A stretch of 32,000 nt of DNA from a virus: IMG/VR virus record IMGVR_UViG_3300045988_160163, positions 9,666 to 41,665 of that record; one strand, 5' to 3'. Shown piece by piece: positions 14,568-20,151 of this stretch. The position numbers were made by a program, and so were the translations under genes. Below the pieces are notes generated by a model. It did no database searches. It was not told the DNA's origin and was given only the letters and a program-made list of their open reading frames with translations. Numbering within the stretch: position 1 is the stretch's first letter; the number at the start of each line of letters is the position of its first letter.

Positions 14568-15665
14568 ATGGCAGTGGAATTAGATAGGAAAACAGGAAAA
14601 TATATGTTTGCCGGGAAAATATATAAAGATGGTAAATGTATAAAGAGATATCGTAAGCGTGGTTTTGATTCTAAATGGGAAGCACAAAAAGCTGAGATTG
14701 AATTTAGGAAAGATTTCTTTATGCTTCCATCAGATATGAATTTTGATAGACTATATAAAGCTTTTAAAGAATATAATAAAAAATATGTAAAAGAATCAAC
14801 ACTAAAATCAGATGAATATTTGTACAATGTTCTTTCTAAGGAAATGAAAGATATTGATTTTCTAGATAAAAGGCAAATGCAAAACTTGATCAACAAATTT
14901 GATGAGAAATATTCAAAAGCATACGTATCAAGAATATATTTCTTTTTAAATAAGCTATATAAATTTGGTGTTACTTCTGAATACATTCCAACCAATCCAA
15001 TGACATATGTAAAACGTGATCTTAGATTGAATGAAAGAAAAGAAGAAATGACAATATGGCAGCAATATGATTTTGATTTATTCATTGAAGAAGTGGATGA
15101 ACAAATGATGAAATGCTTTTATTCTGTTTTATTCTATATGGGATTACGAAAAGGTGAAGCCATGGCCCTACAATGGAAGGACATTGATTTTAGAAAACAA
15201 ACTATAGACATCAACAAAACATATAGATACAAAGAGAAAGACCCTAATAAATGGCTTACACCGCCAAAAACAAACAATAGCTATAGAACTATCACAATGC
15301 CTAATACATTGTCTAAAATGCTTCGAGAATGGTTTTTAGAATGTTCTAAATGGGATGATTTCACAAAAGATAAATTTGTATTTGGATACTATAAACCAAT
15401 ATCACCTCAAACGGTACAAAGAAGATTTGATGATGCATATAATAAGGCAAAAGAAAAAGATGATGGATTGCCTAAAATAAGAATTCATGATTTTAGACAT
15501 TCACACGCATCATTTCTAATTAATAACATGGCTGGAGCTGGATTCTCAGATTTTGACATAGCCAAACGCTTAGGAGATACAGTTGAAACATTGCACAATA
15601 CATATGCACACTGGTTTGATACAAAAGATAAGAGCATTGTTGATATGATGAATAAGTTGTTATAA
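14568..15665 (+). CDS. int: Tyrosine-type site-specific integrase with AP2-like arm-binding N-terminus
   Basis: 365 aa with an AAGAGGG SD. The N-terminus (GKYMFAGKIYKDGKCIKRYRKRGFDSKWEAQKAE) resembles the AP2-like arm-binding domain. Catalytic motifs GLRKGE, HDFRHSHAS and LHNTYAHW (R..H-x-x-R..Y) are present. Confidence 0.9.
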   Translation: MAVELDRKTGKYMFAGKIYKDGKCIKRYRKRGFDSKWEAQKAEIEFRKDFFMLPSDMNFDRLYKAFKEYNKKYVKESTLKSDEYLYNVLSKEMKDIDFLDKRQMQNLINKFDEKYSKAYVSRIYFFLNKLYKFGVTSEYIPTNPMTYVKRDLRLNERKEEMTIWQQYDFDLFIEEVDEQMMKCFYSVLFYMGLRKGEAMALQWKDIDFRKQTIDINKTYRYKEKDPNKWLTPPKTNNSYRTITMPNTLSKMLREWFLECSKWDDFTKDKFVFGYYKPISPQTVQRRFDDAYNKAKEKDDGLPKIRIHDFRHSHASFLINNMAGAGFSDFDIAKRLGDTVETLHNTYAHWFDTKDKSIVDMMNKLL

Positions 15666-15721
15666 AAAGTGATATTAGATTACACAATGTTACAAAAAAG
15701 TACAAAATAGGAGAAATTTGA

Positions 15722-15750
15722 TTGAAATTCACTAGCAAATAATGTAATAT
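15722..15750 (+). promoter_or_regulatory. Near-consensus sigma-A promoter
   Basis: TTGAAA (15722-15727), a 17-nt spacer, then TAATAT (15745-15750). Confidence 0.55.
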
Positions 15751-15756
15751 ACGGAT

Positions 15757-16060
15757 GAAGATAAGCTTGCTGCTCTATCTTGTTTGTCACAGATTAGGTT
15801 CTGTTAAGCTATGATTAAGTATTGTGTTCCAGCATGCATAGTGCTTATAGCTTCTGTAGGGTTGTTTGTGTTCACCTCGAACTGGATAGGTCTATTGGCT
15901 GAAAGAAAACATTCTGATTGTGTATGTGAGGATAGAAAGATGGCTATCGCGCACGAAAGTGTCAAGGGTAGGAATGTAAATTCTGATGAGATGTGGGAAC
16001 TATCGCCCCACCATATACACAAATTGTAGGCCTTGTTAATGCAACAAGGCCTTTACTTTA
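15757..16060 (+). ncRNA. Candidate ~300-nt structured RNA of unknown class (alternative: 72-aa membrane protein ORF 15811-16029)
   Basis: G+C is about 40% by hand count against ~30% in the flanks. 72-aa ORFs are open on both strands. The + ORF has only a weak SD and G/C-rich third positions. Structural elements: GNRA hairpins cac-GAAA-gtg (15952-15961) and gaat-GTAA-attc (15972-15983), helices 15806-15812/15847-15853 and 15919-15928/16012-16021, and a terminal terminator. Confidence 0.45.
16028..16060 (+). terminator. Intrinsic terminator
   Basis: AGGCCTTGTT (16028-16037) pairs with AACAAGGCCT (16043-16052), a 10-bp stem with a 5-nt loop, followed by TTACTTTA. Confidence 0.65.
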
Positions 16061-16078
16061 TATTTGGGAGATATAATC

Positions 16079-16447
16079 ATGAATAAATCGAAAAAGATGT
16101 TATATAAAATAACAGATGAATACATAGAAATGTTTGGATTGGATGAATCATATAAAGATAAAACTATTGCTTTGTATGATGATAGAATAAATCATATAGA
16201 AAGACACAGAGAAGATTTTAATGATCCTTTGTTTTTAGATATTGTTTTCAGAGATTTATCATTGATTGTTTCTAATCCAGATTTTATATCGGAGGACAAA
16301 AAGAATAACAGCTTACAAATTGTCAAGAAAATGGAAGACAATGTACTAGTTGCAGTTAGAATAAGTTCAGGGCCAATATTAAAAATTAAAACGATTTATC
16401 CAATAAATGAAACTAAATACAATAAATTAAAAACAAATAAATTATAA
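16079..16447 (+). CDS. PBECR-like (phage-barnase-EndoU-colicinE5/D-RelE fold) putative nuclease/toxin
   Basis: ATG 16079 lies 7 nt after GGGAGA. 122 aa. IALYDDRINHIERHREDF..LIVSNPDFISEDKKNNSLQIVKK..VLVAVRIS..IKTIYPI matches my recollection of small PBECR-family proteins on Firmicute mobile elements (I.L...RI.HI..RH...PD.I...T.Y). Confidence 0.45.
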   Translation: MNKSKKMLYKITDEYIEMFGLDESYKDKTIALYDDRINHIERHREDFNDPLFLDIVFRDLSLIVSNPDFISEDKKNNSLQIVKKMEDNVLVAVRISSGPILKIKTIYPINETKYNKLKTNKL

Positions 16448-16462
16448 TAGTTAGAGGTGTAT

Positions 16463-16636
16463 ATGAAGATAATAGATTATGTAATAAAAGGACTTAAAAA
16501 TATAAACTTGTTTCCAAAGGTTGAGATTAAAATAGGATCGTTTTATGACGACTATATATCATTATCTAATGATTGGAATATAGTTGGTGAAGATATTAAA
16601 CAAGTTATGAAAGAATACAAAAAGAAAAACAGATAG
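16463..16636 (+). CDS. 57-aa hypothetical protein (candidate partner/immunity of the upstream nuclease)
   Basis: Below the ORF-track cutoff. ATG 16463 follows an AGAGGTG SD. Product MKIIDYVIKGLKNINLFPKVEIKIGSFYDDYISLSNDWNIVGEDIKQVMKEYKKKNR. Starts 15 nt after the upstream stop and is followed by a terminator. Confidence 0.4.
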   Translation: MKIIDYVIKGLKNINLFPKVEIKIGSFYDDYISLSNDWNIVGEDIKQVMKEYKKKNR

Positions 16637-16667
16637 TGTATGCTGCTCAACACCACTATCTGTTTTT
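16629..16667 (+). terminator. Intrinsic terminator
   Basis: ACAGATAGTG (16629-16638) pairs with CACTATCTGT (16654-16663), followed by TTTT. Confidence 0.55.
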
Positions 16668-16841
16668 CATTCTCTGCTAATCTTTTCTTGAGGAAATAGA
16701 AAAAAGCCTAAAATATTTATCATGTACACATGAATAATAACATCACATTTTAAAAAGAGTAATGAAAAATGCAAAATATTAATAAATATTTACAAAACAA
16801 AATTAGTTAATAATATAACCAAAAGTTCATTAAAAATTCTA

Positions 16842-16851
16842 CCCCCCCCCC
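16842..16851. repeat. C10 homopolymer tract (followed by G then A7)
   Basis: Ten consecutive C in a non-coding stretch that is otherwise about 20% G+C, flanked by AAAAATTC on both sides. Confidence 0.9.
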
Positions 16852-17010
16852 GAAAAAAATTCAATACTGGCAATGTGATATATAACCATTTGCACTTTTT
16901 AGTATTATATTTGCACAATTTAATACAAAACAGGCATTGACATATAAAATTTAAGACTTATTATATATTATAATAAGGAAAACGTTTTTCTTTTTATTCA
17001 TAGAAAATGA

Positions 17011-17148
17011 ATGGAAAGGGATGATCTTATGGAAAGGGATTTATGGATAAAAAAATTAATTATCCTGGCAGAAAAGCTTAACGTGGATGATCTGCAAATT
17101 CTGTATAATCATGCACAAAGACTTCTGTTATCATCTAAAAATGAATAA
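17011..17148 (+). CDS. Possible 45-aa helical peptide with duplicated start (MERDDL-MERDLW)
   Basis: In-frame ATGs at 17011 and 17029 sit inside a 12-nt direct repeat, ATGGAAAGGGAT. TTGACA lies at 16937-16942 upstream. No family recognised. Confidence 0.25.
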   Translation: MERDDLMERDLWIKKLIILAEKLNVDDLQILYNHAQRLLLSSKNE

Positions 17149-17308: not shown

Positions 17309-17338
17309 GCTAGGGAATTTACCCTAGCTTATATTTTT
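17306..17338. terminator. Bidirectional terminator between convergent genes
   Basis: TAAGCTAGGG (17306-17315) pairs with CCCTAGCTTA (17322-17331), followed by TATTTTT. An A/T run on the other side serves the - strand. Confidence 0.6.
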
Positions 17339-18350
17339 AATATCCGTTTTGTGTTACACCATATTCTGCTTGTTCTTGTGTATAACCTTCATAAATCAAT
17401 TGATCTATTAATCCTTGTCGAGAGAAGGACGATATGTCTAAATATTCTTTTGCTGATTTAGCGGCCTGCTCGTTCCAGTTTGCGTTGCAGTTATCAGCTG
17501 CATAAGTGGCTTCCTCTGTTGAGTAACCTTCATATTCTAGTTGATGAATTAATCCTGAATAAGAGAATGCAGAAATATTTAAATATTCTCTTGCAGTTCT
17601 TAGTGCATTTTTTTCTCCTGTTGTTGGAGATGGAGTTGATGCATTTGAATTTGTACTTGGAGTAGTTGTAGTTGGTGAAGAAGATGAATTGTTTGAAGAA
17701 GAATTTGAAGTGGTTGAATTTGTATTGCTTTGTTCTTCTTCCTCTTTTTTATCGTTAACAACTACATTATCAACAATGTTATCAAATTCATTTTCGTAAT
17801 CGTATTTCAATCCTTCGTTAGGCTGAATTAATATCATACTGATAAATGATGTTTTATTGTTATTTGATAAAAGATATATAAAGCATTTTGACGGTGTGCT
17901 TGTATCGTTGTCACTGTCATCATCATTTAACGTCAAATTTCCTGTTGTTTCTGAATAATATACAGTACGACCAGCTCTTTTTAATGTTCTTATTCCATAA
18001 CTTGTATCGGTATCTTCCATGAAATCATCTCTGTCTTTTAAAGCATCCATAAAGGCATCCGCTGCTTCACTATTCAATTCCATATCCATTAAAGTGATGG
18101 TTAAAATAGGATATCCTTCATCCGCCCTGAATGATAGCCCTTCTTTTGTACTTACGACATTTTGAAAATACTCAGGTAAGTATATAGTAAAATCACCAAT
18201 TTCAAAAGAATTTGCTTTTAAATCATCTGATTCTCTGTCAGTTATTTCTTCTGTTTGATTGTTGGCTTTAACTCTTTCTTTGTAGCTTGTACATCCTGTG
18301 CACATGGATAGTGCAAGCGTAGCAATCCCAATAGTTTTGAATAATTTCAT
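17337..18350 (-). CDS. ltp: Ltp-family surface lipoprotein (superinfection-exclusion type) with extra N-terminal domain
   Basis: Signal peptide with Cys (MKLFKTIGIATLALSMCTGC). A ~180-aa domain of unknown family, then an S/T/N/P linker, then two C-terminal repeats: GEKNALRTAREYLNISAFSYSGLIHQLEYEGYSTEEATYAADN and NEQAAKSAKEYLDISSFSRQGLIDQLIYEGYTQEQAEYGV. These are the Ltp (host cell surface-exposed lipoprotein) repeat signature. Confidence 0.8.
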   Translation of the reverse strand: MKLFKTIGIATLALSMCTGCTSYKERVKANNQTEEITDRESDDLKANSFEIGDFTIYLPEYFQNVVSTKEGLSFRADEGYPILTITLMDMELNSEAADAFMDALKDRDDFMEDTDTSYGIRTLKRAGRTVYYSETTGNLTLNDDDSDNDTSTPSKCFIYLLSNNNKTSFISMILIQPNEGLKYDYENEFDNIVDNVVVNDKKEEEEQSNTNSTTSNSSSNNSSSSPTTTTPSTNSNASTPSPTTGEKNALRTAREYLNISAFSYSGLIHQLEYEGYSTEEATYAADNCNANWNEQAAKSAKEYLDISSFSRQGLIDQLIYEGYTQEQAEYGVTQNGY

Positions 18351-18436: not shown

Positions 18437-18838
18437 CTATTTGTTGTTCTTTTCTTTTTCTCTTCTTGCTATTTCTCTTTCAACAATTGAATTTAAATAA
18501 TCGGCAACTTGTTGTCTGACTTCTTCGGGCGCTTCCAAATATCCTCGAACAAGTGGCCGTTCTTTTTCAGTTAAGCCATAATCTTCCATGATTTGATCTA
18601 TCTTTGACTCAGGAATGGAAATAAATTTATTTTCACCAATACCTTCTGTTAACCAAGCATAGTCAATATTATATTCACGACATATGGATCTAATAACGAT
18701 TTCTGATGGATGATGAAGTCCTTTTTCGATGTTATTAATAGAACTTCTTGAAACTCCGATAGGAGCACCAAATTTTTCCATGCTTAAATTCAATTCTTGT
18801 CGAATCTCTTTGACTCTTGAACCGATATTATCATCCAT
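18437..18838 (-). CDS. XRE-family HTH repressor (CI-like)
   Basis: N-terminal IGSRVKEIRQELNLSMEKFGAPIGVSRSSINNIEKG HTH_3 pattern. Divergent from the early operon. A - strand terminator hairpin overlaps its stop (18428-18450). Confidence 0.85.
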   Translation of the reverse strand: MDDNIGSRVKEIRQELNLSMEKFGAPIGVSRSSINNIEKGLHHPSEIVIRSICREYNIDYAWLTEGIGENKFISIPESKIDQIMEDYGLTEKERPLVRGYLEAPEEVRQQVADYLNSIVEREIARREKEKNNK

Positions 18839-19701: not shown

Positions 19702-20151
19702 TTACCTCCGCTTATTATGCAGATAATAAGATTTACGAGGTAGGAATTGATTTATCACTAACTCCTTACGATTTATTTGAAATTTCAAAGAGAGAAGATT
19801 ATCAATCTCTAAAGACCTTCCTTCATAATTACGGAATATTAAATAAACGTAATTTGACGTCCTTGGATTCATTTGAAAAGGAAGTGCAGGAGAATATTGA
19901 GCTTTACCGCCTTCAACTTTAATGAGGGTCGGTTCTAAGAGAACAGGATATTCTTTATCGTTATCGGCAATGGAAATGTTTCTTATTTCTATATCACAGT
20001 TTGAATCGTTTATAAGGTGAATATAGAGCAAAGTAGTTTTATTTTGTAACTCATAATCAATTACTTTTGAGTTAAAACGTATGATTCTAAAACTAGGAAT
20101 AATTTTATTGACGATATCGAGTAGTGATTTAAAAGTATTTAGTAATTTCAT
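19702..20151 (-). CDS. Counter-oriented hypothetical protein (accessory gene candidate)
   Basis: 149 aa with a GGAGGT SD 8 nt upstream of the ATG on the - strand. Beta-rich, no family recognised. Its 3' 220 nt overlap an open + strand ORF (19683-19922). Confidence 0.5.
   Translation of the reverse strand: MKLLNTFKSLLDIVNKIIPSFRIIRFNSKVIDYELQNKTTLLYIHLINDSNCDIEIRNISIADNDKEYPVLLEPTLIKVEGGKAQYSPALPFQMNPRTSNYVYLIFRNYEGRSLEIDNLLSLKFQINRKELVINQFLPRKSYYLHNKRR

What the first reader, a model, noticed from the sequence alone, without database searches (positions are those of the whole stretch)
15722..16667. Promoter - ~300-nt structured RNA - terminator - PBECR-like nuclease - 57-aa ORF: a possible RNA-plus-nuclease module next to the integrase
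Seen directly, transcription signals: a TTGAAA-17-TAATAT promoter (15722-15750) and a 10-bp-stem terminator (16028-16060). Between them is a segment of about 40% G+C (hand count) against ~30% flanks. It carries 72-aa ORFs open on both strands. The + ORF has only a weak SD and G/C-rich third positions, unlike every neighbouring gene. Seen directly, structure: two GNRA-tetraloop hairpins (15952-15961, 15972-15983), a 7-bp helix 15806-15812/15847-15853, and a 10-bp long-range helix 15919-15928/16012-16021. Nineteen nt after the terminator a gene starts whose product has the I.L..RI.HI.RH / NPDFI / T.Y pattern I associate with PBECR nuclease folds. A tightly linked 57-aa ORF and a second terminator follow. 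Interpretation: promoter-RNA-terminator-toxin is the layout of type III toxin-antitoxin loci (ToxIN-like). However, this RNA has no tandem repeats and the nuclease is not ToxN-like. If the RNA and nuclease are functionally linked, the pair does not match any family I know. Comparative genomics has reported integrase-associated prophage RNA motifs (I recall the name Lacto-int). I cannot test membership here.
Basis: partly seen in the sequence, partly recalled or inferred. Interest (0 to 1): 0.7.

Follow-up and report, generated by a model that had tools for sequence, protein, structure and literature searches.

The report
Skipping-rope/drum RNAs paired with PBECR3 RNase
The "structured RNA" is two already catalogued but functionally unexplained phage RNAs (drum and skipping-rope), and one of them, skipping-rope, sat next to every relative of the adjacent small PBECR3 RNase gene that I could evaluate, which makes an RNA-antidote/RNase-toxin pair the most likely and now testable explanation.

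Summary
Window 15806-15917 is a full-length drum RNA (Rfam RF02958, 74.8 bits). Window 15921-16019 is a full-length skipping-rope RNA (SR; RF02924, 57.9 bits). A 10-bp intrinsic terminator follows, then a PBECR3-family (BECR-fold) RNase gene (16079-16447), a 57-aa ORF and a second terminator. The cassette lies between the integrase and the Ltp/repressor genes of a temperate phage.

The RNA is not new and is not Lacto-int. The RNA-nuclease link is real. In loci found through the protein alone, SR lies beside the PBECR3-like gene on the same strand in 26 of 27 viral loci (the one miss is cut by a contig end), 5 of 5 MAG loci and two metagenome lineages. SR lies upstream with a terminator in the window's clade and downstream with its own promoter elsewhere.

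The converse fails: most phage SR copies are solo, and some sit inside tRNA arrays. Drum and the 57-aa ORF are optional additions.

Best reading (inferred, about 0.5): a type III-like toxin-antitoxin or abortive-infection pair in which SR neutralises the RNase. The abiF-motif/AbiF system is a precedent. The instance is a new member of known families whose function is still open.

The parts
15722..15750 (+). Candidate sigma-70 promoter TTGAAA-17-TAATAT for the RNA transcript (unverified)
   Evidence: Matches the consensus at 9 of 12 positions, which is not above the shuffle expectation. The same upstream sequence is seen only in L086 among the aligned related cassettes; the others have different upstream sequence.
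15783..15799 (+). Small 5' hairpin (ACAGA/UCUGU stem) just upstream of drum, conserved in this phage family with variable loop
   Evidence: Alignment of related cassettes; present in the minimum-free-energy fold.
15806..15917 (+). drum RNA (Rfam RF02958), full length
   Evidence: cmscan 74.8 bits against a gathering score of 43, model positions 1-112 of 112. Absent from all more distant PBECR3 loci, so it is not the nuclease's obligate partner.
15921..16019 (+). skipping-rope RNA (Rfam RF02924), full length, with a lineage-specific extra GUAA hairpin (15971-15984)
   Evidence: cmscan 57.9 bits against a gathering score of 36.7, model positions 1-80 of 80. Across 33 distinct phage copies, 98% of cells are paired and 16 of 23 pairs show compensatory changes. 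A pseudoknot between the P2 and P4 loops is supported. The sequence is 69-92% identical to copies next to proteins that are only 41-65% identical.
16028..16060 (+). Intrinsic terminator 1 between the RNA and the RNase gene
   Evidence: Terminator scan and fold. A terminator with a different, compensating stem sequence occupies the same place in L003 and L014-L018 and in L001.
16079..16447 (+). Solo PBECR3-family (BECR-fold) predicted RNase, 122 aa; RBS GGGAG at 16066-16070; no room for its own promoter
   Evidence: Pfam PF18812, 51.9 bits. AlphaFold2 pLDDT 97. Fold matches to the PBECR-type domains of polyvalent and MuF-C phage proteins (E 8e-6 to 1e-3, TM 0.6-0.7). Weak fold matches to RelE/HigB/BrnT toxins. 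H43 is invariant and T/S105 is present in 49 of 50 sequences.
16463..16636 (+). 57-aa ORF of unknown function (weak match to phrog_27385); not an obligate partner
   Evidence: No Pfam match; phrog_27385 E 9e-5. Relatives occur without PBECR3 (L087) and elsewhere in the cassette (L077). No counterpart was seen next to the distant PBECR3 genes.
16624..16668 (+). Terminator 2 (15-bp stem, U5 tail)
   Evidence: Fold -19.8 kcal/mol, z = -4.8. In cassettes without PBECR3 this same hairpin directly follows skipping-rope, so about 16022-16616 behaves as an insertion/deletion.
14568..15665 (+). Context: tyrosine integrase; the cassette sits between it and the Ltp (17337-18350, -) and XRE repressor (18437-18838, -) genes
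   Evidence: Pfam and PHROGs matches. In integrated relatives the integrase abuts host tRNA genes.

Best explanation
SHOWN.
- The segment is a variable accessory ('moron') cassette in the lysogeny region of a temperate phage of a low-G+C Bacillota host.
- It encodes one transcript carrying two known structured RNAs in tandem: drum (15806-15917) and skipping-rope (SR; 15921-16019). The transcript ends at an intrinsic terminator.
- A promoterless gene for a solo PBECR3-family BECR-fold RNase follows immediately.
- SR and PBECR3-like genes form a near-universal same-strand gene pair across phages, prophages and chromosomes.
- Drum and the 57-aa ORF are optional additions.

INFERRED MECHANISM. SR and PBECR3 work as a type III-like toxin-antitoxin or abortive-infection pair.
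- The RNase is toxic (probable targets: tRNA or other cellular RNA).
- It is held inactive by direct binding of the folded SR RNA.
- SR is made in excess. In this clade the RNase mRNA arises only by read-through of the terminator. In other clades SR has its own strong promoter just downstream of the gene.
- When transcription is shut off (phage attack, loss of the element), the RNA would decay faster than the protein and the RNase would be freed.
- Solo SR copies carried by many phages would then act as antidotes or decoys against such RNases.
For: Identity:
- Rfam hits for drum and SR are full-length and above threshold.
- The gene product matches Pfam PBECR3.
- The structure model and fold matches agree with that assignment.
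- Catalytic-type residues are conserved: His43 in 50 of 50 sequences, Thr/Ser105 in 49 of 50.

Linkage, from loci ascertained by protein only:
- P0009 and P0010 loci: SR directly upstream.
- Five of 5 Erysipelotrichaceae MAG loci (41-48% identity): SR directly upstream.
- Twenty-six of 27 viral loci of two more distant subfamilies: SR starts within about 130 nt downstream of the gene match, on the same strand. The only miss ends at a contig end.
- S. suis prophage 'spbA' genes: SR lies 19 nt downstream.

No other conserved partner: neighbouring genes differ between loci.

RNA-level selection:
- SR is 69-92% identical where the proteins are 41-65% identical.
- Covariation is strong.

Asymmetry expected of a toxin and its antidote:
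- SR is often solo: 48 of 59 loci and at least 38 of 63 evaluable loci lack the gene.
- Within the window's own phage family the RNA is constant while PBECR3 is present in only 8 of 19 loci.
- One locus has a frameshifted PBECR3 next to an intact SR.

Layout:
- A terminator is kept between SR and the gene, with compensating stem changes, and in most loci there is no room for a promoter.
- Consensus promoters precede SR in the loci where the gene comes first.

Context:
- The cassette lies between int and cI beside an Ltp superinfection-exclusion gene.
- In other phages PBECR3 is placed directly after the XRE/cI repressor gene.

Precedent: another orphan motif from Weinberg 2017, abiF, was shown experimentally to be a type III-like RNA antitoxin of a prophage AbiF toxin with the same promoter-RNA-terminator-gene layout (PMC12373285).
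Against: - No experiment bears on toxicity, binding or neutralisation.
- SR has no tandem repeats and the protein is not ToxN/AbiQ-like, so two defining type III features fail.
- In most of the family the order is gene then RNA, with separate promoters. No characterised type III system is arranged that way.
- Most phage SR copies are solo and lie in very varied contexts. This could equally mean that SR has a function of its own and PBECR3 merely acts on it.
- PADLOC has no match.
- PDB fold matches to RelE-type toxins are weak (E 0.02-0.3).
- Drum's role in the same transcript is unexplained.
Confidence: 0.5

Rival explanations
1. Ribonucleoprotein or processing model. SR is a functional phage small RNA in its own right. 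PBECR3 is a non-toxic accessory that binds, matures or uses SR as cofactor or substrate, for example by trimming it out of precursors or as an RNA-dependent RNase. There is no toxin-antitoxin relation.
For: - SR is widespread without PBECR3, including inside phage tRNA arrays where it must be processed by host enzymes.
- A protein that exists only to act on SR would also always sit next to SR.
- Iyer et al. 2017 note that some PBECR domains, such as Mu gp30, are inactive RNA binders.
Against: - Catalytic His and Thr/Ser residues are conserved across the family.
- Characterised BECR-fold RNases in conflict systems are described as toxins or effectors (Iyer et al. 2017).
- The promoterless gene placed behind a terminator suggests deliberate under-expression of the protein relative to the RNA.
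- PBECR3 is repeatedly lost or pseudogenised while SR stays. That pattern is typical of a costly toxin.
Confidence: 0.25
2. Purely cis-acting leader. Drum and skipping-rope form a riboswitch-like or attenuator-like 5' leader that senses a ligand or protein and controls read-through of terminator 1 into the PBECR3 gene.
For: - The aptamer-like RNA, terminator, then RBS and gene layout is seen in the window, L001, L003 and L014-L018.
- The abiF RNA acts partly in cis.
Against: - In at least 14 other lineages SR lies downstream of the gene behind its own promoter.
- SR often has no downstream gene to regulate.
- Weinberg et al. 2017 also judged these motifs improbable riboswitches because they are rarely in 5' UTRs.
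Confidence: 0.07
3. The 15811-16029 ORF encodes a real 72-aa (membrane) protein, and the apparent RNA structure is incidental.
For: The ORF is open and begins with a hydrophobic stretch.
Against: - The ORF spans two independent Rfam RNAs.
- Relatives lack drum and therefore lack its N-terminal half.
- SR lengths range from 70 to 141 nt, with many values that are not multiples of three apart.
- Variation is compensatory in stems.
- There is no Pfam, PHROGs or PADLOC match.
- The 'protein' similarity seen in P0010 and P0013 is a gene-caller artefact of reading through SR.
Confidence: 0.01

Closest known systems
skipping-rope RNA (Rfam RF02924) and drum RNA (RF02958), Weinberg et al. 2017 NAR (PMC5737381)
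   Same: Both RNAs give full-length matches above the gathering score. Both share the published traits of a 3' Rho-independent terminator and association with a nearby protein gene on either side.
   Different: - Here the two RNAs are fused 3 nt apart in one transcript. Among about 245 loci examined with a drum sequence pattern, this arrangement was seen only in this phage family.
- SR carries an extra variable hairpin.
- The partner protein is identified here as Pfam PBECR3. The paper's supplement could not be read, so I cannot say whether it names the same protein.
Pfam PF18812 PBECR3 / PBECR domains of phage polyvalent proteins (Iyer, Burroughs, Anand, de Souza, Aravind 2017, PMC5512222)
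   Same: The HMM match, the conserved His plus Thr/Ser configuration and the fold similarity to MuF-C and polyvalent-protein domains all agree. That paper explicitly mentions solo phage versions.
   Different: I found no mention of an RNA partner in the passages of that paper I searched. It proposes host or CRISPR RNA targets for injected polyvalent proteins. Here the domain is a solo 122-aa protein in the lysogeny module.
Type III toxin-antitoxin systems (ToxIN, AbiQ, CptIN, TenpIN)
   Same: The order is promoter, non-coding RNA, intrinsic terminator, then a promoterless endoRNase gene. The elements are phage- or plasmid-borne and there is a defence context (established knowledge, summarised in PMC12373285).
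   Different: - The RNA has no tandem repeats.
- The toxin fold is BECR rather than ToxN.
- Most family members place the RNA after the gene.
- Processing and neutralisation are untested.
abiF RNA motif (RF03085) / RCd22-AbiF of C. difficile prophage (PLoS Genet 2025, PMC12373285)
   Same: A structured RNA motif first found by comparative genomics lies next to a prophage-borne toxic RNA-targeting protein, with a terminator between the RNA and the gene. That RNA was shown to neutralise the toxin by direct binding.
   Different: The RNA family and the protein family (HEPN/Abi_2) are both different, and RCd22 contains two repeated motifs. Nothing has been tested for SR and PBECR3.
DUF3800 RNA motifs I-XI with DUF3800 (RNase H2-like) genes
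   Same: The logic of one structured RNA family tied to one nuclease-like gene is the same. In a sister phage (L039/L248) a DUF3800 gene sits upstream of drum+SR in the same cassette position. In L117 and L125 drum is fused to DUF3800-XI RNA.
   Different: There is no DUF3800 gene in the cassette of this window, so drum is an orphan here.

Membership tests
Rfam skipping-rope (RF02924) | Covariance-model score at or above the gathering threshold over the full model | tested here: met
   57.9 bits against 36.7, model positions 1-80 of 80, window 15921-16019.
Rfam skipping-rope (RF02924) | Multi-stem junction (P1 closing P2, P3 and P4) supported by covariation | tested here: met
   98% of cells paired and 16 of 23 pairs with compensatory changes, against 30-45% paired when the partners are slid. 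The alignment was fitted to the model. The minimum-free-energy fold of the window copy gives the same helices.
Rfam skipping-rope (RF02924) | 3' Rho-independent terminator and association with a specific nearby protein gene (Weinberg 2017) | tested here: met
   Terminator at 16028-16060. A PBECR3-like gene is adjacent in every evaluable protein-ascertained locus.
Rfam drum (RF02958) | Covariance-model score at or above the gathering threshold over the full model | tested here: met
   74.8 bits against 43, model positions 1-112 of 112, window 15806-15917.
Rfam drum (RF02958) | Association with a particular nearby protein (Weinberg 2017; identity not available to me) | tested here: inconclusive
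   No conserved neighbour in 11 drum-ascertained phage loci. A DUF3800 gene is adjacent only in L039/L248. None is present in this cassette.
Pfam PBECR3 (PF18812) | HMM score above the curated cut-off | tested here: met
   51.9 bits against 30, covering residues 9-115.
Pfam PBECR3 (PF18812) | Active-site His in the N-terminal helix region plus C-terminal Thr/Ser (Iyer et al. 2017) | tested here: met
   H43 in 50 of 50 sequences, H39 in 41 of 50, T/S105 in 49 of 50. Definition taken.
Pfam PBECR3 (PF18812) | [quoted passage not shown] | tested here: inconclusive
   The model has pLDDT 97, with an alpha-helical N-terminal part followed by a 4-stranded sheet. The best PDB matches are RelE/HigB/BrnT toxins, but only at E 0.02-0.3 and TM 0.3-0.56. 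Matches to viral polyvalent and MuF-C domains are stronger (E 8e-6, TM 0.6-0.7).
Type III toxin-antitoxin (ToxIN-like) | RNA gene upstream of the toxin gene, separated by a terminator and co-transcribed | tested here: met
   Met for the window clade. Not met for most other PBECR3-SR loci, where the gene comes first and SR has its own promoter.
Type III toxin-antitoxin (ToxIN-like) | Antitoxin RNA made of tandem direct repeats | tested here: not met
   No tandem or direct repeats in 15757-16060.
Type III toxin-antitoxin (ToxIN-like) | Toxin of the ToxN/AbiQ family | tested here: not met
   Pfam gives only PBECR3 and PBECR2. PADLOC gives nothing.
Type III toxin-antitoxin (ToxIN-like) | The RNA binds and neutralises the toxic protein | not testable with these tools
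   Requires toxicity-rescue and binding experiments.
   cmscan of the whole window at gathering thresholds, and of 15600-16800 at E<=1, reports only drum and skipping-rope plus chance miRNA/snoRNA-level hits.
tRNA / tRNA-like structure | Match to the tRNA model or ARAGORN detection | tested here: not met
   No tRNA hit at E<=1 in 15600-16800. ARAGORN finds none in the window. Only the junction topology resembles tRNA: linkers of 2, 1, 4 and 0 nt, and a contact between the loops of the first and third hairpins.

The most novel reading that the evidence does not exclude
Skipping-rope is a tRNA-shaped pseudo-substrate.
- Its architecture is an 8-bp closing stem, junction linkers of 2, 1, about 4 and 0 nt, three 5-bp arms, and a pairing between the loops of the first and third arms like the tRNA D-loop/T-loop contact. 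The 'anticodon' arm is capped by a tetraloop.
- On this reading it plugs the active site of tRNA-targeting PBECR3 RNases. That would define a new, repeat-free, BECR-based class of RNA-antitoxin systems.
- Phages that carry solo copies, sometimes inside tRNA arrays where RNase P and RNase Z could release them, would use SR as an anti-defence decoy.
- Drum and the DUF3800 RNAs might be analogous antidotes for other nucleases.
Probability: 0.3. Interest if true: 0.85.

Novelty: new member of a known kind. Interest (0 to 1): 0.6.

Why it matters
Drum and skipping-rope were published in 2017 as conserved RNAs with 'sophisticated' structure. The paper library I could search holds no later functional work on them.

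This analysis ties skipping-rope specifically to solo PBECR3 RNases with almost no exceptions. The relation is asymmetric: the protein was never found without the RNA, but the RNA is often found without the protein.

That turns an open question into a simple experiment: toxicity of the RNase with and without the RNA. If the pair is an RNA-antitoxin system, it would:
- extend type III-like toxin-antitoxin biology to a second non-ToxN toxin fold, after AbiF;
- give a function to a widespread phage RNA;
- suggest that phages stockpile RNA antidotes next to their tRNA genes.

The instance in this window is itself an ordinary member of that class.

Tried and rejected
- **Lacto-int or another named RNA class:** rejected by cmscan.
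- **The 72-aa ORF as a gene:** rejected.
- **ToxI-like repeats:** none found.
- **The 57-aa ORF as a protein antitoxin:** rejected as an obligate partner. No counterpart was seen next to the distant PBECR3 genes, and relatives occur without PBECR3.
- **XRE/ImmA neighbours as partners:** present only in a subset of phage loci, where they look like the phage repressor module.
- **Another conserved protein next to solo SR copies:** none; the neighbours are heterogeneous.
- **Drum as PBECR3's partner:** rejected. Drum is absent from all loci outside this phage family, and no PBECR3 gene lies near solo drums.
- **PDB sequence search:** no meaningful hit.
- **PADLOC:** no hit.
- **First genome-contig scan:** found nothing, and two broader alignments were too diverse to scan with.
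- **blastn against cultured phages:** matched only a short integrase stretch.
- **Literature access:** the Weinberg 2017 supplement and the 2026 BECR-classification preprint could not be read. A search for 'spbA' was uninformative.
- **Stop-codon test on SR copies:** uninformative for elements this short.
Full report
**1. What is there**

The window is part of a temperate phage genome.
- Tail and lysis genes run up to 14256.
- A tyrosine integrase lies at 14568-15665.
- An Ltp-type superinfection-exclusion lipoprotein lies at 17337-18350 (-).
- An XRE repressor lies at 18437-18838 (-), followed by early genes.

Related contigs show the same integrase abutting host tRNA genes, so those copies are integrated prophages. 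The finding lies in the int-to-repressor interval, the usual home of lysogen-expressed accessory genes.

**2. Checking the observation**

Rfam cmscan of the whole window gives exactly two hits above threshold:
- drum RNA (RF02958) at 15806-15917, 74.8 bits against 43;
- skipping-rope RNA (SR; RF02924) at 15921-16019, 57.9 bits against 36.7.

Both are full length and they lie 3 nt apart.

The 10-bp long-range helix is SR P1. The first GNRA hairpin is SR P3. The second is a lineage-specific variable hairpin. The 7-bp helix contains drum's outer stem.

Other confirmed features:
- Terminator 1 (16028-16060) and terminator 2 (about 16624-16668) are strong hairpins with U tails.
- G+C rises to 0.37-0.41 over the RNA.
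- The 16079-16447 product matches Pfam PBECR3 (51.9 bits).

The promoter at 15722-15750 is only a 9-of-12 consensus match. Such matches are no more frequent than chance, and among the aligned related cassettes the same upstream sequence is seen only in L086. No tandem repeats exist in the RNA.

**3. RNA, not protein**

The 72-aa ORF (15811-16029) spans both RNAs.
- Relatives that lack drum lack its N-terminal half.
- SR copies range from 70 to 141 nt, with many lengths that are not multiples of three apart.
- Across 33 distinct phage SR sequences, 98% of cells pair and 16 of 23 pairs show compensatory changes. Only 30-45% pair when the partners are slid.
- SR is 69-92% identical at the nucleotide level next to proteins that are only 41-65% identical.
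- Gene callers elsewhere have translated SR as spurious N-terminal extensions, in P0010 and P0013.

**4. Is the RNA linked to the nuclease?**

I collected loci through the protein only.

| Source of loci | Result |
|---|---|
| Close relatives (98% identity), same phage family | Same cassette |
| Two metagenome lineages (61-65% identity), chromosomal contexts | SR directly upstream; no drum |
| Five Erysipelotrichaceae MAG loci (41-48% identity) | All have SR upstream on the same strand, followed by a terminator whose stem sequence differs but compensates |
| Two more distant subfamilies, 27 viral loci | 26 have SR on the same strand starting within about 130 nt downstream of the gene match; the one miss ends at a contig end 30 nt after the gene match |
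| Deposited S. suis prophages, gene annotated 'spbA protein' (between lysin and att) | An unannotated SR lies 19 nt downstream |

The exhaustive profile search that supplied the distant subfamilies found 155 representatives.

Where the gene comes first, the spacer carries near-consensus -35/-10 or extended -10 boxes and SR is usually followed by its own terminator. SR is therefore an independent small-RNA gene in those loci.

No other neighbour is conserved. The 57-aa ORF has no counterpart next to the distant PBECR3 genes, and its relatives occur without PBECR3.

**5. The converse does not hold**

I also ascertained loci through the RNA.
- In the first sample, only 11 of 59 phage loci have a PBECR3-like ORF anywhere in the stored stretch.
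- In the second sample, 25 of 80 have one and it is always directly upstream on the same strand. Another 38 lack one despite at least 700 nt of room on both sides. The other 17 cannot be judged.

Solo copies sit in heterogeneous contexts: next to integrases, lysins, tail-fibre genes, HU or PIN-PhoH genes, and a toxSAS/Panacea TA pair. Eleven of 142 copies lie within 300 nt of a same-strand tRNA gene, mostly inside tRNA arrays.

Within the window's own phage family (same integrase, 19 loci) SR is constant while the rest varies:
- int, drum, SR, PBECR3, 59-aa ORF (the window's type);
- int, drum, SR, 59-aa ORF;
- int, drum, SR;
- int, DUF3800, drum, SR;
- int, DUF2335, SR;
- int, DUF6978, DUF1828/1829, SR.

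Alignment shows that window positions of about 16022-16616 (terminator 1, PBECR3 and the 57-aa ORF) are an insertion/deletion between SR and terminator 2. One locus has a frameshifted PBECR3 beside an intact SR.

**6. The protein**

- AlphaFold2 with a 50-sequence alignment gives pLDDT 97.
- The best PDB fold matches are RelE, HigB and BrnT RNase toxins, but they are weak (E 0.02-0.3).
- Viral matches are domains of MuF-C, 'PolyVal' and nuclease polyproteins (E down to 8e-6, TM 0.6-0.7). These are the PBECR contexts described by Iyer et al. 2017.
- H43 is invariant. T/S105, K/R104, R94 and K83 are near-invariant. This fits the His plus Thr/Ser site of that paper, so an active RNase is likely.
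- PADLOC and the PDB sequence search give nothing.

**7. Mechanism**

Shown:
- The SR-PBECR3 gene pair is obligate from the protein's side and facultative from the RNA's side.
- Selection acts at the RNA level.
- In this clade a terminator precedes a promoterless RNase gene. In other clades a dedicated SR promoter follows the gene.
- The cassette sits in lysogeny-module or repressor-operon positions.

Inferred: SR binds and neutralises a toxic RNase in a type III-like TA or abortive-infection pair, with the RNA in stoichiometric excess. I found no conserved protein inhibitor, and characterised BECR RNases in conflict systems are described as toxins or effectors.

The abiF motif (RCd22)/AbiF system of a C. 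difficile prophage supports this by analogy. It also began as a Weinberg 2017 motif. It has the same RNA, terminator, gene layout and was shown to be a type III-like RNA antitoxin (PMC12373285).

I put this reading at about 0.5. The main rival (about 0.25) is that SR has its own function and PBECR3 is a dedicated binder or processor. A purely cis leader is unlikely because of the gene-first loci and the solo copies.

**8. A structural lead (inference only)**

SR's junction has linkers of 2, 1, 4 and 0 nt. P1 is 8 bp and there are three 5-bp arms. The loops of the first and third arms form a covarying 3-4-bp pairing: 83% of cells pair, against 21-52% when slid. This is the topology of tRNA, with the anticodon loop replaced by a tetraloop.

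Combined with the copies inside tRNA arrays, this suggests a tRNA-like pseudo-substrate. However, the tRNA covariance model and ARAGORN do not detect it.

**9. Drum**

Drum is not PBECR3's partner.
- Solo drums with terminators occur in other phages. Two lie in tRNA arrays and two are fused to DUF3800-XI RNA.
- In a sister phage a DUF3800 gene precedes drum+SR.
- Homologues of that DUF3800 gene elsewhere carry DUF3800-I RNA instead.

Drum may therefore belong to the class of RNAs that partner DUF3800 genes. In this window it is an orphan and its role is unexplained.

**10. Novelty**

The RNA families, the protein family and the existence of an RNA-protein association are published. The searchable literature holds no functional study. 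This instance is a new member of known kinds. What I add is the identity of the partner, the near-universality and asymmetry of the link, and a testable mechanism.

Noticed in passing
window 16842-16858: A C10 A7 homopolymer tract in a 24% G+C intergenic region between the cassette and the 45-aa ORF. It could be a slippage-prone tract.
   Followed up: no
window 16937-16964 and 17011-17148: A near-consensus promoter (TTGACA-16-TATTAT, 11 of 12) lies upstream of a 45-aa ORF that is conserved in the related phages.
   Followed up: no
L064 3012-3096 and 3127-3196; L085 1700-1784 and 1815-1884: Two skipping-rope copies in tandem, 31 nt apart, with no PBECR3 gene in the stored stretch. This is the only repeat-like arrangement seen.
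   Followed up: no
L035 2266-2847: An intact skipping-rope is followed by a PBECR3 gene split into two frames, a probable pseudogene.
   Followed up: partly
L121 3759-8424; L124 2101-3030; L029 883-3484; L036 224-2640: Large phages carry skipping-rope and/or drum inside same-strand tRNA gene arrays, 1-35 nt from a tRNA gene.
   Followed up: partly
L117 11384-11537; L125 3610-3763: Drum RNA is fused head-to-tail with DUF3800-XI RNA, analogous to the drum and skipping-rope tandem in the window.
   Followed up: no
L248 (same contig as L039) 1356-2630; L249-L255 about 1501-2363: A DUF3800 gene sits upstream of drum+SR in a sister phage. Its 76-82% identical homologues elsewhere instead carry DUF3800-I RNA, convergent at the gene's 3' end.
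   Followed up: partly
L246 (KX077895.1) 2450-2959; L247 (MK448989.1) 2612-2959: Deposited S. suis prophages annotate the PBECR3-like gene as 'spbA protein' or hypothetical. It lies between the lysin gene and the att site, and the skipping-rope RNA 19 nt downstream is not annotated.
   Followed up: yes
L088, L093, L109-L111, L113 (0.1-0.9 kb upstream of PBECR3): In several phages the PBECR3 gene directly follows an XRE/cI-like repressor gene, sometimes with an ImmA-like metallopeptidase gene. This suggests co-expression with the lysogeny repressor.
   Followed up: partly
L050 526-1913: A SocA/Panacea antitoxin plus RelA-SpoT (toxSAS) toxin pair lies next to a solo skipping-rope on the opposite strand.
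   Followed up: no
L114 187-366; L049 12216-12285; L089 3193-3424; L124 3360-3610: Other structured RNAs occur in the same phage stretches: FuFi-1, a Pistol ribozyme and group I introns.
   Followed up: no
window 19702-20151 (-): A 149-aa ORF with no Pfam match. In L086 a near-identical ORF lies immediately downstream of skipping-rope, showing how the int-to-repressor interval is reshuffled.
   Followed up: no
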